Of a stretch of DNA of 64,000 nt, positions 3,001-63,800 are shown piece by piece. This DNA is from Harriotta raleighana (lineage: Eukaryota). Numbering within the stretch: the first letter of the stretch is position 1; each line of letters begins with the position of its first letter. The DNA lies in NCBI GenBank assembly GCA_050575255.1, contig JBNZDD010013687.1:1004373-1068372 (forward strand), read 5' to 3'. The position numbers were made by a program.

Positions 3001-6000
3001 GGGTTAAGACATTCTGATTGAAGAAAAAGCAATAGAACTGAATTCCACATAAATAATTAGGAGATATTGAAGGTTAATTTAGTGCTATTTATTAATGGGG
3101 TTCTTTCATGAGAAATCTGAATCATGCTGAAAGTGAATGTACATTTAACTGATTCAGAATAACTAAGTTCTAAAATATTGGTACTACTTTGACAACTCGT
3201 GGGGGCTATGCCAGTTGCAGTAATTGACTTGTCATGTGCCTAGCAAAGGTGAAATAAATGAAGTATTTGTATTTCTTGTATTGGCTGAACAATAACTGGG
3301 GCTTTACATCTGCAGAGTTTGATGAAACACGAAAGTGTGAGGATTGTGCTTGGACTGGTCCTGGCCTTTGGAAATTACATGAATGGTGGGAACAGGACCC
3401 GTGGCCAGGCAGATGGATTTGGTCTGGAAATTCTTCCAAAGTTAAAGGATGTCAAAAGCAGAGTATGTTACATCTCTCTTAATTTTCTGACTGAAAACAA
3501 TATGTAATAACATTCAGGAATTAGCCGTTCTATGTAACACCTAAATTCGGTGAGTGAGAATCTCACAGTATTGGGAGGTATCATTGTTTTATTGTGATTC
3601 TTATAATCTCTGAGTGTGCACTAATATATGGTAAATGTCAATATTTATTGCAAAAAATAGACTGGCACAGTTCAATATTTAGATCATGATTTAACTGTAA
3701 CTATATTTTCTTGAAATAATAAATGTCAGTGTTTTTGTGCACTAATGTGTGTCTGGAATAGAAAACAGCTGTATTTTCCTAATTTCAGTGAAAACATTTT
3801 ATGAGTATTTCTTGTGACGAGTGTAGTTTTATAATCAGGGACTAGCAAAAGGTCAAAAAACAATGAGAGTGTAGCTGAAGCTATTTATTTTGTTTGAACG
3901 TGGCAGATGTTATGATTATCAAGAGCATTTGGTGGTGTTGCAATTTTGGAATCTCTGAATCTGAAATGTCAATCTGATTTCTTCATCACTGTTCCATTGT
4001 GCACATTCGTGGATTTTAAACTGCTGCATGGATGGTTAAGAGACCTTGTCTGCATTGTACCTTTCTCAACCATCCAAACATGCCACCCAACAACAAATAA
4101 GGCAAAAATGGAACCATTGAATAGATGGCAATGGGGCACAAATTCCTTTGAATCCAATACCAACTTGTAACATACTCAACATAAGAAAATGCCTGATAAA
4201 TACGTTTCAGAGATAAGCCAATATGCAGATGTCATAATTTTTGCTTCATGTGAATTACTTATTTTGTAATATTTATCTCGTTGGTGAGTGAAACACAGCA
4301 GCTATGATGCCACACTGTAAAATGTGGGAGAGTACAACTTTTACAAATTAATTGTATTAATTGCATTGTCTGCATTTCTTTGGGCTGAAGATTTTGCTTT
4401 GTCTTGATATCTTGCGTTATGCCTTTTCTTTTTCAAATGAATAATTTGGGGGCTTGAAAAGAAATCAGGTAACTAAGGATTATTAAATCTACAGAAAATC
4501 TCACTAAAGAAATCCGTGGAAAATTGGAACATTCAAGTTCAATGGTCTTGCCTAGTCTGAAACAGTTACTATGTTAAAGGTTGTTATATTGAATTCCCAT
4601 TTACTCTTCAATTGTAAATTTAGCTATGTGTTATATGTTTTTAAATTTGGGAGTGCAAATTACGCGTGGAACACCTACTGGAAGGAACGGGAAAGTAAAG
4701 TAATCCTGAAACAAATGGGGAGAATTATTGATGCTAGTGTTCTGTGTTTAGAGGAAACAGAGCTGTTTCCTGTTCGATTGGGCTACTCCTGTGCTAGTTA
4801 TCCAATGGTGAATAAACATTGCTAGAAAGCATAATGCTTTCACTGTATCCCTGGTATTCTGAATTCTAATCCTTTATTTTACTCTTTTAGGATAATCAGA
4901 TCAGCCTTGTGGATTACGTTGTATCCTATTATTTGCACAACGTTGACGAGGTAATTGATGGATCTTCAGCCAAGTTTTAGAAGGTTCTGTGACCACCTAA
5001 AGCTCCTCTTGTTTTACATTAACGGTTTTCAAACTGGATTTCCTTTCTCAGTATGTCCAACTATTGCTTTGTCTTTTTATTTTTGTCCTTGAAAAATTAA
5101 AATGATTACTAGTGCCCGAGGAAGATAACCTAATGAATAATTCATCAAATTAGCCCTAATGTAAATCAAAGCACATTTTAGTTTTTTTTTAATGGGCAGC
5201 AGTTTGGGAAATAGTTGAACCCGCTTTGAATCATTTTACTTTTAGAACAAATGATGTGTCCTTAATTTTCTTTTGTCAAAGCTGAACAGTGAGAGTTTCT
5301 TTGTTAACCTGTAACAGGACGCAGGAACAGACAAGAGTGTGTATCCTTTGCCGGAACCACAGAACTTCCTCCTGGCTTCCCAAGTTAAGTTTGAAGATCT
5401 TACGAAGGAACTTAGAAAGTTGAAAAGAGACCTTGAAGGTACATATCGAACCTTTTTAAAACATATAATACAAGGCATAGTTACATGTTGTAACGAATAT
5501 ATAAAAGAGATTGAACAGGATGTCTAAGGATAAAATGACAAAATTCTACCCAGTAAAGCCCACTAAACGCAGATGTATTTTAGTTGAGTAATGTTTATAC
5601 TACATCATAATTATTATGAAAGAGCTAGAAATAGGGTAATGTAGCTAAATTGTTTATTGCCGTGATTTCAAATGAAAAGCTTGCAGCTTCACGACAAAAA
5701 TGCTTACATTCGATGCCCACTTAAAAACACACATATATTTCAGCAAAGTAAGCACTTCCTAGCAGAGATTTGCTAAATGCTTTTAGTAGTACAAGCCATT
5801 TATGAACGAGTACATATTTAAGTGCTCCAAGACGCCTCATCACAAGAAGAGCGCTCTACAAATGCAAGTTTCCATTGTTGCGTTCAATAAAAGTGAAAAG
5901 GCAGTTTTATTGGAGAAGATTCTATCGAATCCTGGAGGTCAACAGTGGTAGGAAAGTATCAGTTGTTATTTATTCAACTCAGGCACACAGGAATACTCTT

Positions 6001-60802: not shown

Positions 60803-63800
60803 CCTTGCATTTGATATAGCGCTTTTCACATCTTATCAACGTCCCAAAGCGCTTCACAGAATATACTGTAAAGTGAATTGACTGTATATTTGTGGACGGA
60901 ACGCGGCAGCCAATTGCGCACAGCAGTGTCCCACAAACAGTCATGGATTGAAATGAACAATTTTATTATTGTGTTTTTTTTTTGGAGGGATTATTATTAG
61001 GCATGTGGAGTAAGGAAACTTGCCCAAGGTTTCGCCCTGATCTGCCTGGATTCGAACACAGGTCTCATGCTTGTAAGGCATGTAAGGCGAATGCTCTAAC
61101 CACTGAGCTACAGGAGCTCCACGGGGTTGGGGAAACAAACTAGAGAGTTGCTGTAAATTAATGACAAGCAATCTTGATACACCAAATATCATACTCCTGC
61201 TCTTTTTTTCCTGTAATAAATTCTGTTGAAAACTTAAAGATAATCTGGGAAAATTGATGCAGAACTTTCATTGCTTTTGCCAAACTTCTAAGGGTTTGGA
61301 GCAGGAGATTCCTGGCTCCACCAAGAATCACAAACAGAAAGGGAATTGGTTCTGCCAAGCCCCTACTCATCCAGTCTACGTAAAGCACTTGATCAATGCT
61401 ATGAATTCCTTTGCCACAGAACGAAGAGTGTCTACAGTACTGCCTTCCTTCAAAGAGTGCACAGCAATTAGCAGCAACATAGTCATTGTTAAAGTGATCC
61501 ATCATCTACATGGAGTCAGCCCTAAAATTAAGACATATTCTACTATCTTTCCCTCATCTTAGATCGTTCTGGGTAGCCCTATGTCAAGGTTCATCAGGTA
61601 AAACCTGGTATGTGAATGTATTACTCACATATAAATTATGTTTTTGTAGATACCTGTGATTTTGCTTCCGATGTTCCTCAAAAAATTCAACCCTTGTGAT
61701 TGCTTCAAGACGTTATCTGAAGTGAAAGTGTTATAAAATGCAAATTGTTGTTGTTATTCATATTTAACGGTTTCTGTGTGGGTTTTACATGTTTCTAAAA
61801 TAGGATTATTAATGTTTTATTGTTTCATATGGTGGGGCTTTATATGAATTAGATAAGACCTTGGAATGTGACTGGGATCAACTCTCCCATTTCAAAACAT
61901 AGGGATCCCAGCCATATTAAAATTGATTCAGTCTGATGTGATTCTGCTCTACAAGGACCTACTAATCTAATAAGGATTTAAACTGGCGTTTAACTTTGCA
62001 ATGTTGGGTAACATTCCCAATTTAGGGAAGGGCAGCCAAAATATAATGGCAGGTTATGTTTGAGAAGGATTAGATCGTGGTTTACGATAATGTGCATAAA
62101 AAAATCTCTGGAAGAGGGCTCAATTTTGTCCATTGGTTTGGTGGGTGTGTTGCGCTTACACGATCCAAATTATTGCTATTATCATTTGTTCTTTTCAAAT
62201 GTTCTGGGTTTGACTTAATGGATAACCAATGGGCATTTCTGAAATAATTTCAGGTTGAGAGAGGCGCAACTCTCTGTAAAGAAGATAACAGCAGAGAAGA
62301 AGGTTGAAACCAAGAAAATAAATCCTAATAGTCTGGTAAGATATTTATATATTCTTGTATTTGTCTATGAAGGTCAGCAGTGGTGAAGAAACGATATCAA
62401 ACACGAAATTTAACAGCTTGCCATCAACTGGTATTGAAAAATAAAGTACTATTGAACTTCCACAGAGGAGTTTTTCACATACCAAGAAAATATTAAGGCA
62501 ACAGATGTGCTCATTCACCAAATAATTTTTATTTGGTGCACTGGCATTACAAATAATGTGATCGTCTGATTCTGCTGAATAATATCAAAACAACAACAAC
62601 AAAATTGCATTTGTATAATGTCTTTCACATCAGAAGGCCATCCCAAGGTCGTGGACAGGTTACTGCTTCAGACCAAGCTAAGGACGGGAGGGGGGTGGAG
62701 GGGCGGGAGGCGGGGGTTGGAAAGACAAGACAAGTAAGGAGAAGAACAGATATCGTAAAAAAGGAAGGAGCAATTTGCAGGGTGAGGAGTGAAAACAAGC
62801 AAATTAATGGATAGTGAATTTAAAGAGTCAGAATGGACCAAATAGCCTTCTTCTGTGGTGAAAATTTCTATGGATCTATTGTCAATGACACTGAGCTTTT
62901 CTAACAGAAAGATAGAATGCGCCAGAGGGTGGCCAACACGACCACCAGCTGAACGGGACACGAGACACACTACATGACTTAACTCTTTGGATGCTGCCAA
63001 TGTTTGAAGAAGAGCTGGCATTAAAAAGCTTGAGTATCTTTGCATTTCTCGTTTGTAAAAAATCAACAACTCCGTGAGGAGATTTCCATTACCGTGATGA
63101 CTTGATGTTTCTTCCATTCCAAACCTTCTTGTTTCCAGTTGGCAGTGAAAGTGTTCATTATTTCTTCACACAACATTGGGAGTGGATGTGAGTCCAATTA
63201 GTTTATGCTATGTGAAATTGCTACTGGCAACATGAATATATTATCCCTTGGAGCTTATAGCCGCTGGCAATATTTGGCGCTACAGGTCAACGAATAAGAT
63301 TAGACACAAGAGCTAAAACATTCCTCATGTTGCTAAGTGAAATGACCCTGTGTTCGGCCTTTATGAACACACTTCGCTGTATTGAGCTGCATGAGGAATC
63401 TTTTGCCAAACGAATTCTGGAAATGCAAAAAAAAAACGAAAGCTAAAATACTATGAGGAGCATATTCCAGCTGTCACAACTGCTGTCCATTTGGCTGGTC
63501 CTATTTCTAAAATGATTGCTCTCTATCTCTCACACTTCCTATTCTTCGCCACCACCAGCATATTTTACATGAACTCCGTCTTCAAACTGACAATGTTATC
63601 TACCTCCACTGCCTCCCTGGTGAAATTTGTTCCACATATTCATCACCCGCTGTGTAAACGAGTTACGTCTTAATTGCCGTCTAGCTGTGGATTTCTTGAC
63701 TCTATCGAACGTGTCAATAGAATTCAGCTTCTTTATGCACTTTAGAATTAGAACATTTTAGTGAGACAATCCAATCATGTTTTCTGATGTAAACATGACT

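What the first reader, a model, noticed from the sequence alone, without database searches (positions are those of the whole stretch)
5439..62253. The four large FMN1 introns correspond to the Grem1 'global control region'; intron size jumps where the control region should begin
Seen: the first three introns are 2191, 1428 and 367 bp, and the next four are 11528, 10707, 15402 and 18883 bp. Established: mouse limb deformity alleles act by deleting Grem1 cis-regulatory DNA located in the 3' introns of Fmn1 (exons 19-23), and FMN1-GREM1 synteny is deeply conserved. Inference: counting back from the last coding exon, exons 5318 to 62335 match that interval, so most of this window is probably the fin-bud Grem1 regulatory landscape of a cartilaginous fish, with GREM1 downstream on the opposite strand.
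Basis: partly seen in the sequence, partly recalled or inferred. Interest (0 to 1): 0.7.

Follow-up and report, generated by a model that had tools for sequence, protein, structure and literature searches.

The report
Chimaera FMN1 introns hosting GREM1 enhancers
This is the tail end of the formin-1 gene of a chimaera-like cartilaginous fish, and its four very long introns sit where mouse and shark studies have already placed enhancers of the neighbouring limb and fin gene Gremlin1, so it is a correct but already published idea.

Summary
The + strand carries nine coding exons of a formin. Its eight GT-AG introns measure 2191, 1428, 367, 11528, 10707, 15402, 18883 and 572 bp, and the reading frame is continuous.

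Exon-by-exon comparison puts the gene in FMN1, not FMN2. The source is a holocephalan close to, but not identical with, Callorhinchus milii: 88-91% identity, against 72-79% for sharks and rays.

Counting back from the last coding exon, the four long introns lie between the counterparts of mouse exons 19 and 23. That is the published Grem1 "GCR", now called EC1.

Malkmus et al. 2021 aligned the elephant shark and bamboo shark landscapes. They found the CRM2 core element and exon 22 deeply conserved, and showed shark CRM2 and CRM5 active in mouse limb buds.

What I could not confirm:
- No vertebrate genome was on hand, so non-coding conservation in this window is untested.
- GREM1 is not in the window.
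- The only in-window hint is a dense cluster of HOX13-type cores directly 3' of the exon-22 counterpart.

"Most of the window is regulatory" and "the control region begins at exon 19" overstate what is published.

Verdict: real, ordinary, already known.

The parts
995..1124 (+). FMN1 coding exon A (FH2 domain); counterpart of mouse exon 16 by counting back from the last coding exon
   Evidence: Acceptor AG before 995 and donor GT at 1125. The containing ORF hits Pfam FH2 at E 1.6e-6, 27.9 bits, below the family cut-off of 34.8. 38 of 43 residues match C. milii P0071.
3316..3462 (+). FMN1 coding exon B (FH2 core, GNYMNGG motif); counterpart of exon 17
   Evidence: Pfam FH2 E 8.8e-16. 45 of 49 residues match C. 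milii P0071.
4891..4950 (+). FMN1 coding exon C; counterpart of exon 18
   Evidence: tblastn with shark FMN1. 18 of 20 residues match C. milii.
5318..5438 (+). FMN1 coding exon D; counterpart of mouse exon 19, the 5' edge of the published GCR interval
   Evidence: tblastn. 37 of 40 residues match C. milii. Splice sites.
5439..16966 (+). Long intron D-E, 11,528 bp
   Evidence: GT...AG, length exact. Holds SINE fragments and a GC-rich, TE-like stretch at 10.5-11.2 kb.
16967..17059 (+). FMN1 coding exon E; counterpart of exon 20
   Evidence: tblastn gives 21-22 of 31 residues matching shark FMN1. Frame continuity.
17060..27766 (+). Long intron E-F, 10,707 bp
   Evidence: GT...AG, length exact.
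27767..27818 (+). FMN1 coding exon F, 52 nt; counterpart of exon 21; the weakest exon call
   Evidence: It is the only splice choice that keeps the frame. 12 of 18 residues match C. milii P0001, E 0.002.
27819..43220 (+). Long intron F-G, 15,402 bp
   Evidence: GT...AG. Holds a decayed LINE reverse-transcriptase fragment at 31535-32149(-) and a tRNA-headed SINE at 36502-36787.
43221..43370 (+). FMN1 coding exon G; counterpart of mouse exon 22, which the literature calls an integral part of the Grem1 enhancer CRM2
   Evidence: 45 of 49 residues match C. milii P0001 and 36 of 49 match gar. Literature: passages of PMC8455560.
43371..43770 (.). Candidate for the CRM2 core element (CE/HMCO1). This is inference only, not aligned to any other species.
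   Evidence: Nine ATAAA/TTTAT cores in 400 bp against a window mean of 2.36; 0.25% of 400-bp windows reach this. A stricter HOX13 pattern ranks only in the top 10%, and there is no GLI consensus within 600 bp. There is no within-window repeat between 40768 and 47324.
41050..41480 (.). AT-rich stretch with the densest ATAAA/TTTAT cluster of the window; meaning unknown
   Evidence: Eleven cores in 400 bp, the window maximum. Sequence read.
43371..62253 (+). Long intron G-H, 18,883 bp
   Evidence: GTAAGA...TTCAG. Holds several SINE copies, for example 49871-50153, 54301-54608 and 60776-61120.
62254..62335 (+). FMN1 coding exon H; counterpart of exon 23, the 3' edge of the published GCR interval
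   Evidence: 25 of 27 residues match C. milii P0001.
62908..62952 (+). Last coding exon I with stop codon TGA at 62950-62952; counterpart of exon 24
   Evidence: 12 of 14 residues match the C-terminus of C. milii P0001. An ATTAAA lies at 63020.

Best explanation
The window is the 3' part of the formin-1 (FMN1) gene of a holocephalan: its last nine coding exons, covering the C-terminal half of the FH2 domain and the tail.

Four long introns (56.5 kb, 88% of the window) separate the counterparts of mouse coding exons 19 to 23. They are the positional orthologue of the mouse Grem1 'global control region', now called enhancer cluster EC1.

By analogy with published work on mouse, elephant shark and bamboo shark, the interval most likely carries one deeply conserved GREM1 enhancer. 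This is the CRM2 core element, built around and next to the exon-22 counterpart (exon G, 43221-43370). The best candidate is the HOX-site-rich 400 bp directly 3' of that exon. In the published model the element binds HOX13, GLI and SMAD4 complexes and loops to the GREM1 promoter, which lies beyond the 3' end of FMN1 on the other strand.

The rest of the intronic DNA is old unique sequence with scattered SINE and LINE debris. Nothing shows it to be regulatory.

Shown here: gene identity, exon and intron structure, lineage, and intron sizes. Inferred: the exon numbering, the presence and place of the enhancer, the GREM1 neighbour, and the mechanism.
For: Structure: eight GT-AG introns and one continuous frame.

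FH2 domain: Pfam FH2 in the ORFs holding exons A and B. Exon B passes the family cut-off; exon A scores below it.

FMN1 orthology:
- No hit's list of 68 is named formin-2; the named ones read formin, formin-1, formin-like or FH2-domain protein, or carry no informative name.
- Tetrapod FMN1 outscores tetrapod FMN2 in 8 of 9 exons, with 1 tie.
- Summed identity is 69% with Xenopus and Pogona FMN1, against 54% with mouse FMN2 and 58% with turtle FMN2.

Lineage: C. milii matches 138 of 152 residues over exons A-D and 93 of 106 over exons F-I. Seven elasmobranchs match at 72-79%.

Positional match to mouse: the critical 70 kb lies between Fmn1 coding exons 19 and 23, and HMCO1 lies next to exon 22 (PMC3541112, passages). 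Exons are numbered up to 24 (PMC10153463, passages).

Size: the exon 19-22 counterpart spans 38.1 kb here. Ray-finned fishes and frogs, which lack HMCO2/3, have 3-7 kb; mammals and coelacanth have 50-70 kb.

Published conservation and function: CRM2 and CRM5 (the enhancers) and CRM8 are ancient and present in elephant shark and bamboo shark. Exon 22 is an integral part of CRM2 in all species. Elephant shark CRM2 was active in 6 of 6, and CRM5 in 4 of 4, LacZ-expressing mouse founder embryos. Mutating the Gli and Hox13 sites disrupts bamboo shark CRM2 (PMC8455560, passages and section 6).

In the window: the 400 bp 3' of exon G holds 9 HOX-type cores against a mean of 2.36, reached by 0.25% of windows. 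A 6.5-kb stretch around exon G is free of within-window repeats. No other gene shows up: of 277 ORFs of 55 aa or more, only FH2 (2), one RVT_1 fragment and one chance hit were found.
Against: No non-coding stretch of this window was aligned to any other species, so the refuting condition 'no intron shows conservation' remains open.

The HOX-core test was partly post hoc, because I had read the sequence first. The stricter HOX13 pattern chosen beforehand gave only 4 sites in 600 bp (top 10% of windows). No GLI 9-mer with one mismatch or fewer lies within 600 bp of exon G. The strongest core cluster of the window is not at exon G but about 2 kb upstream, in plainly AT-rich DNA.

GREM1 is not in the window.

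The exon numbering rests on counting and on deletion names, not on a mouse exon table. Zuniga 2004 and two older papers were not held.

Adjacency of the four largest introns is alone not significant, at 7%.

Repeat content was measured only by self-similarity (9.4% of the long introns), so old transposon DNA could make up much of the rest.
Confidence: 0.8

Rival explanations
1. The long introns are neutral bulk: lineage-specific growth by transposon insertion and slow decay. They would have no role in GREM1 control in this species, and their position is a coincidence or a passive inheritance of intron size.
For: Transposon debris is present. One roughly 300-bp tRNA-headed SINE family contributes 22 fragments, 72-83% alike. 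There are four smaller repeat families, a decayed LINE reverse transcriptase, and a TE-like GC-rich stretch. No CpG island was found. No conserved non-coding block was shown here. Adjacency of the large introns is only a 7% event.
Against: Only 9.4% of the long introns resembles anything else in the window. The same interval is long in mammals and coelacanth and short in lineages that lack the conserved elements. A closely related species, C. milii, has a CRM2 that drives reporter expression.
Confidence: 0.12
2. The introns hold regulatory DNA that serves FMN1 itself or another neighbour, rather than GREM1.
For: [quoted passage not shown] No contact data exist for this species.
Against: In mouse those Fmn1-type enhancers lie in the separate Fmn1 TAD. 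The enhancers with Grem1-like activity lie in the Grem1 TAD, which holds the exon 19-23 interval (EC1/GCR).
Confidence: 0.06
3. The gene is FMN2, so any neighbour would be a different gene and the Grem1 reading fails.
For: Exon B is nearly as similar to FMN2 (39 of 48 residues) as to FMN1, and exon C ties. One FMN2-named protein, from Tupaia, topped the list by score.
Against: FMN1 outscores FMN2 in 8 of 9 exons. Exon H matches FMN1 at 20 of 26 residues and FMN2 at 7 of 20. Exon G matches at 32 of 49 against 26 of 49. No hit's list is named formin-2.
Confidence: 0.02

Closest known systems
[quoted passage not shown]
   Same: Same host gene. By counting, the same exons bound the interval. The span is similar: 57.0 kb here from exon D to exon H, against about 70 kb in mouse. 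The exon-22 counterpart sits inside it.
   Different: CRM3/HMCO2 and CRM4/GRE1 are not reported in cartilaginous fishes. No function, chromatin or contact data exist for this species. The GREM1 neighbour has not been seen.
[quoted passage not shown]
   Same: Cartilaginous fish orthologue; C. milii proteins are 88-91% identical over the exons. The same element is expected next to exon 22.
   Different: This is another species. I had no access to the published shark sequences or coordinates, which are in closed supplements. By my reading of the CRM numbering and cluster assignments, CRM5 and CRM8 lie 5' of exon 19, which would be outside this window.
Other 'bystander gene' regulatory landscapes, such as the ZRS of Shh inside Lmbr1 (named in the passages of PMC10153463; the wider concept is recalled)
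   Same: Enhancers of a developmental gene lodged in introns of an unrelated neighbour, which keeps the two genes linked.
   Different: Different genes and different enhancers.

Membership tests
Formin-1 (FMN1) gene | Encodes an FH2 domain | tested here: met
   Pfam FH2 in the ORFs holding exon A (E 1.6e-6, 27.9 bits, below the 34.8-bit cut-off) and exon B (E 8.8e-16, 58.4 bits, above it).
Formin-1 (FMN1) gene | Groups with FMN1 rather than its paralogue FMN2 | tested here: met
   Done exon by exon. Tetrapod FMN1 outscores tetrapod FMN2 in 8 of 9 exons with 1 tie. Summed identity is 69% against 54-58%. No tree of a joined model was made.
Formin-1 (FMN1) gene | GREM1 as convergent 3' neighbour | not testable with these tools
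   Only 1,048 bp follow the stop codon. None of the 277 ORFs of 55 aa or more matched any family other than FH2, RVT_1 and one chance hit. No vertebrate genome collection was on hand.
Grem1 GCR / EC1 regulatory interval | Lies between Fmn1 coding exons 19 and 23 | tested here: met
   Counting back from the last coding exon (taken as 24) gives D = 19 and H = 23. The numbering up to 24 comes from the deletion names d1-24 and d10-24. Exon homology itself is inferred.
Grem1 GCR / EC1 regulatory interval | Expanded exon 19-22 distance, as in lineages that have the conserved elements | tested here: met
   38.1 kb here. Ray-finned fishes and frogs have 3-7 kb; mammals and coelacanth have 50-70 kb (PMC3541112).
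Grem1 GCR / EC1 regulatory interval | Conserved non-coding core element (CE/HMCO1) next to exon 22 | tested here: inconclusive
   No sequence from another species was available to align. A HOX-core cluster lies 3' of exon G (9 in 400 bp, reached by 0.25% of windows), but the stricter pattern ranks only in the top 10% and no GLI consensus is present. In a search with the genomic ORF that holds exon G, 6 of the 150 listed hits reached far into the intron flank. One of those is a 915-aa protein, so this carries no weight.
Grem1 GCR / EC1 regulatory interval | Enhancer activity, open chromatin and contact with the GREM1 promoter in fin or limb buds | not testable with these tools
   Needs experiments. 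Published for mouse, and for shark elements tested in mouse.

The most novel reading that the evidence does not exclude
Beyond the published CRM2 core element, this holocephalan interval may hold further fin-bud enhancers specific to cartilaginous fishes. One candidate is the homeobox-site-rich 41.05-41.48 kb stretch, about 2 kb 5' of the exon-22 counterpart. That would explain why the interval stays about 57 kb long in a small genome, while ray-finned fishes shrank it to a few kb.
Probability: 0.25. Interest if true: 0.45.

Novelty: already known. Interest (0 to 1): 0.22.

Why it matters
The FMN1-GREM1 pair is a textbook case of one gene's enhancers living in the introns of an unrelated neighbour. 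It explains the classic mouse limb deformity alleles.

A second holocephalan copy of the interval adds one more species to comparative work on how the fin-bud GREM1 circuit was reused in limbs. It could help to narrow the conserved core next to exon 22. It changes no current view: the conservation in cartilaginous fishes and its function in reporter assays were published in 2021.

Tried and rejected
1. GLI motif scan. There are 9 sites with one mismatch or fewer to the 9-mer in the whole window, and none within 600 bp of exon G. This is uninformative, because the mouse GLI-bound regions in GRS1 also lack a consensus motif (PMC3541112).

2. A stricter HOX13 pattern gave 4 sites in the 600 bp 3' of exon G, which ranks only in the top 10% of windows.

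3. Search of 1.84 billion representative proteins with the 77-aa genomic ORF 43141-43371. The hope was that genomic ORFs of other species would show a conserved intron flank. There were 214 hits at E of 0.001 or better. Six of the 150 listed start at query residue 11 or earlier, but one of these is a 915-aa protein, and shorter extensions also occur in long spliced proteins. The result is inconclusive. These hits are unnamed, their species is unknown, and they were not fetched or used.

4. Pfam scan of all 277 ORFs of 55 aa or more on both strands, looking for nested genes or transposon proteins. It found only FH2 (2 ORFs), one RVT_1 fragment below the cut-off, and one chance Dopey_N hit at E 0.008.

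5. Rfam gave only two tRNA-like hits, which are SINE heads. No CpG island was found. Tandem repeats are trivial.

6. The alternative splice pair for exons F and G with the same intron lengths breaks the frame.

7. Zuniga 2004, Zhou 2009 and Chao 1998 are not held, so I saw no mouse exon table.

All comparisons were made exon by exon, so there is no full-length tree.

9. The window is not human. Its best matches are chimaera and shark FMN1.

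
Full report
**What is there**

The window has no N and is 37.8% G+C. On the + strand lie nine coding exons of a formin:
- A 995-1124
- B 3316-3462
- C 4891-4950
- D 5318-5438
- E 16967-17059
- F 27767-27818
- G 43221-43370
- H 62254-62335
- I 62908-62952, ending in a TGA stop

All eight introns have GT...AG ends and the frame runs unbroken across every junction. The intron lengths are 2191, 1428, 367, 11528, 10707, 15402, 18883 and 572 bp. The finding's coordinates 5439-62253 run from the start of the fourth intron to the end of the seventh. 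The eighth intron and the last coding exon also lie in the window.

tblastn with named shark FMN1 proteins supports exons A-E, G and H. Exon F (52 nt) is the weakest call. It is the only splice choice that keeps the frame, and it matches a Callorhinchus milii fragment at 12 of 18 residues (E 0.002). The last exon I was also placed with that C. milii fragment.

**Which gene and which animal**

I built no joined protein, so there is no full-length alignment, tree or fold.

The ORFs holding exons A and B hit Pfam FH2; exon B passes the family cut-off and exon A scores below it. A search with exon G gave 68 hits. None is named formin-2; the named ones read formin, formin-1, formin-like or FH2-domain protein, or carry no informative name.

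Against sets of named proteins, tetrapod FMN1 outscored tetrapod FMN2 in 8 of 9 exons, with a tie in the 20-residue exon C. Summed per-exon identity is 69% with Xenopus and Pogona FMN1, against 54% with mouse FMN2 and 58% with turtle FMN2. The gene is FMN1.

The closest proteins are two C. milii fragments. P0071 matches 138 of 152 residues over exons A-D, and P0001 matches 93 of 106 over exons F-I. Seven elasmobranchs reach 72-79%. The source is therefore a holocephalan close to, but not the same as, the elephant shark. It is not human.

**What fills the introns**

I scanned 277 stop-to-stop ORFs of 55 aa or more on both strands against Pfam. The matches were:
- the two FH2 exons
- one decayed reverse-transcriptase fragment (31535-32149, minus strand, E 6.5e-4, below the family cut-off)
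- one chance hit

No nested gene and no GREM1 turned up.

Self-comparison finds 5,378 bases (8.4% of the window, 9.4% of the long introns) that resemble another part of the window. Most belong to one tRNA-headed SINE family of about 300 bp, with 22 fragments that are 72-83% alike. There is no CpG island. I had no repeat library, so older transposon DNA may be much more abundant than this lower bound.

**Comparison with what is published**

[quoted passage not shown] The conserved block HMCO1 lies next to exon 22. [quoted passage not shown] Mouse deletions are named d1-24 and d10-24, and Grem1 lies about 40 kb away in the opposite direction (PMC10153463, passages).

Counting back from the last coding exon gives I = 24, H = 23, G = 22 and D = 19. 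The four long introns then fill exactly the published interval. From exon D to exon H is 57.0 kb, and from D to G is 38.1 kb. If the numbering holds, the chance that just these four of eight introns are the largest is 1/70. Their mere adjacency is a 5/70 event.

**The idea is already in print**

Malkmus et al. 2021 (PMC8455560; passages and section 6 read) renamed the GCR as EC1 (CRM2-4). They aligned the Grem1 landscape of 14 vertebrates, including elephant shark and bamboo shark. Their main findings:
- The enhancers CRM2 and CRM5, and also CRM8, are ancient.
- Elephant shark CRM2 was active in the limb buds of 6 of 6, and CRM5 of 4 of 4, LacZ-expressing mouse founder embryos.
- Mutating the Gli and Hox13 sites disrupts bamboo shark CRM2.

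CRM5-8 form EC2. I infer that EC2 lies further from Grem1, hence 5' of exon 19, from two things: the CRMs are numbered outward from Grem1, and CRM2-4 are assigned to the GCR. Exons A-D here are packed into 4.4 kb, so those elements should lie upstream of this window.

It follows that the control region does not begin at exon 19. Inside this window only one deeply conserved element is expected, next to exon G.

**Tests in the window for that element**

No vertebrate genome collection was available, and the supplements with the shark coordinates and the HMCO alignments are closed. I could therefore align nothing.

Motif counts gave a mixed picture. No GLI 9-mer with one mismatch or fewer lies within 600 bp of exon G. 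This carries little weight, because the mouse GLI-bound regions also lack a consensus. A HOX13 pattern chosen beforehand gave 4 sites in the 600 bp 3' of exon G, which is in the top 10% of windows.

After reading the sequence I counted the bare ATAAA/TTTAT core. There are 9 in the 400 bp directly 3' of exon G, against a mean of 2.36. Only 0.25% of windows reach that, and there are 0-1 on the 5' side. This fits the published Hox13-rich core element and suggests 43371-43770 as its place. The test was partly post hoc, however, and the densest cluster of all lies in AT-rich DNA at 41.05-41.48 kb.

The 6.5 kb around exon G (40768-47324) holds no within-window repeat.

A search of 1.84 billion representative proteins with the genomic ORF that holds exon G was inconclusive (see Tried and rejected).

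**Verdict**

It overstates how much of the window is regulatory and where the landscape begins. Its two own refutation tests, GREM1 downstream and non-coding conservation, stay open for this sequence. The finding is a further species for a published case.

Noticed in passing
13044-13353 (-), 36502-36787 (+), 49871-50153, 54301-54608, 57943-58210, 58908-59110, 60776-61120 and 15 shorter pieces: One old SINE family of about 300 bp with a tRNA-like head. ARAGORN calls tRNA-Ala TGC at 13280-13351, and Rfam gives tRNA hits at 13280-13351 and 36502-36573. There are 22 fragments totalling 3,542 bp, 72-83% alike.
   Followed up: partly
31535-32149 (-): A decayed LINE reverse-transcriptase fragment: a 205-aa open frame with RVT_1 at E 6.5e-4, below the Pfam cut-off. 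Close by is the best repeat pair of the window, 22505-22773 and 31054-31329, 92% alike.
   Followed up: partly
10500-11220: The most G+C-rich stretch of the window (up to 0.60, CpG o/e 0.59), with a 183-aa open frame on the minus strand and no Pfam match. By eye it resembles the tail of a fish retroposon. 10624-10722 has 5 relatives in the window.
   Followed up: no
41050-41480: The densest cluster of ATAAA/TTTAT cores in the window (11 in 400 bp), in AT-rich DNA about 2 kb 5' of exon G. It could be a second homeobox-site-rich element or mere base composition.
   Followed up: no
3-80 (+): A short open frame at the very start of the window whose translation, by eye, recalls the C-terminal end of a fish LINE ORF2. 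No Pfam match.
   Followed up: no
62671-63165 (-): A 165-aa open frame antisense to the last FMN1 coding exon and the start of the 3' UTR. No Pfam match; probably chance.
   Followed up: partly
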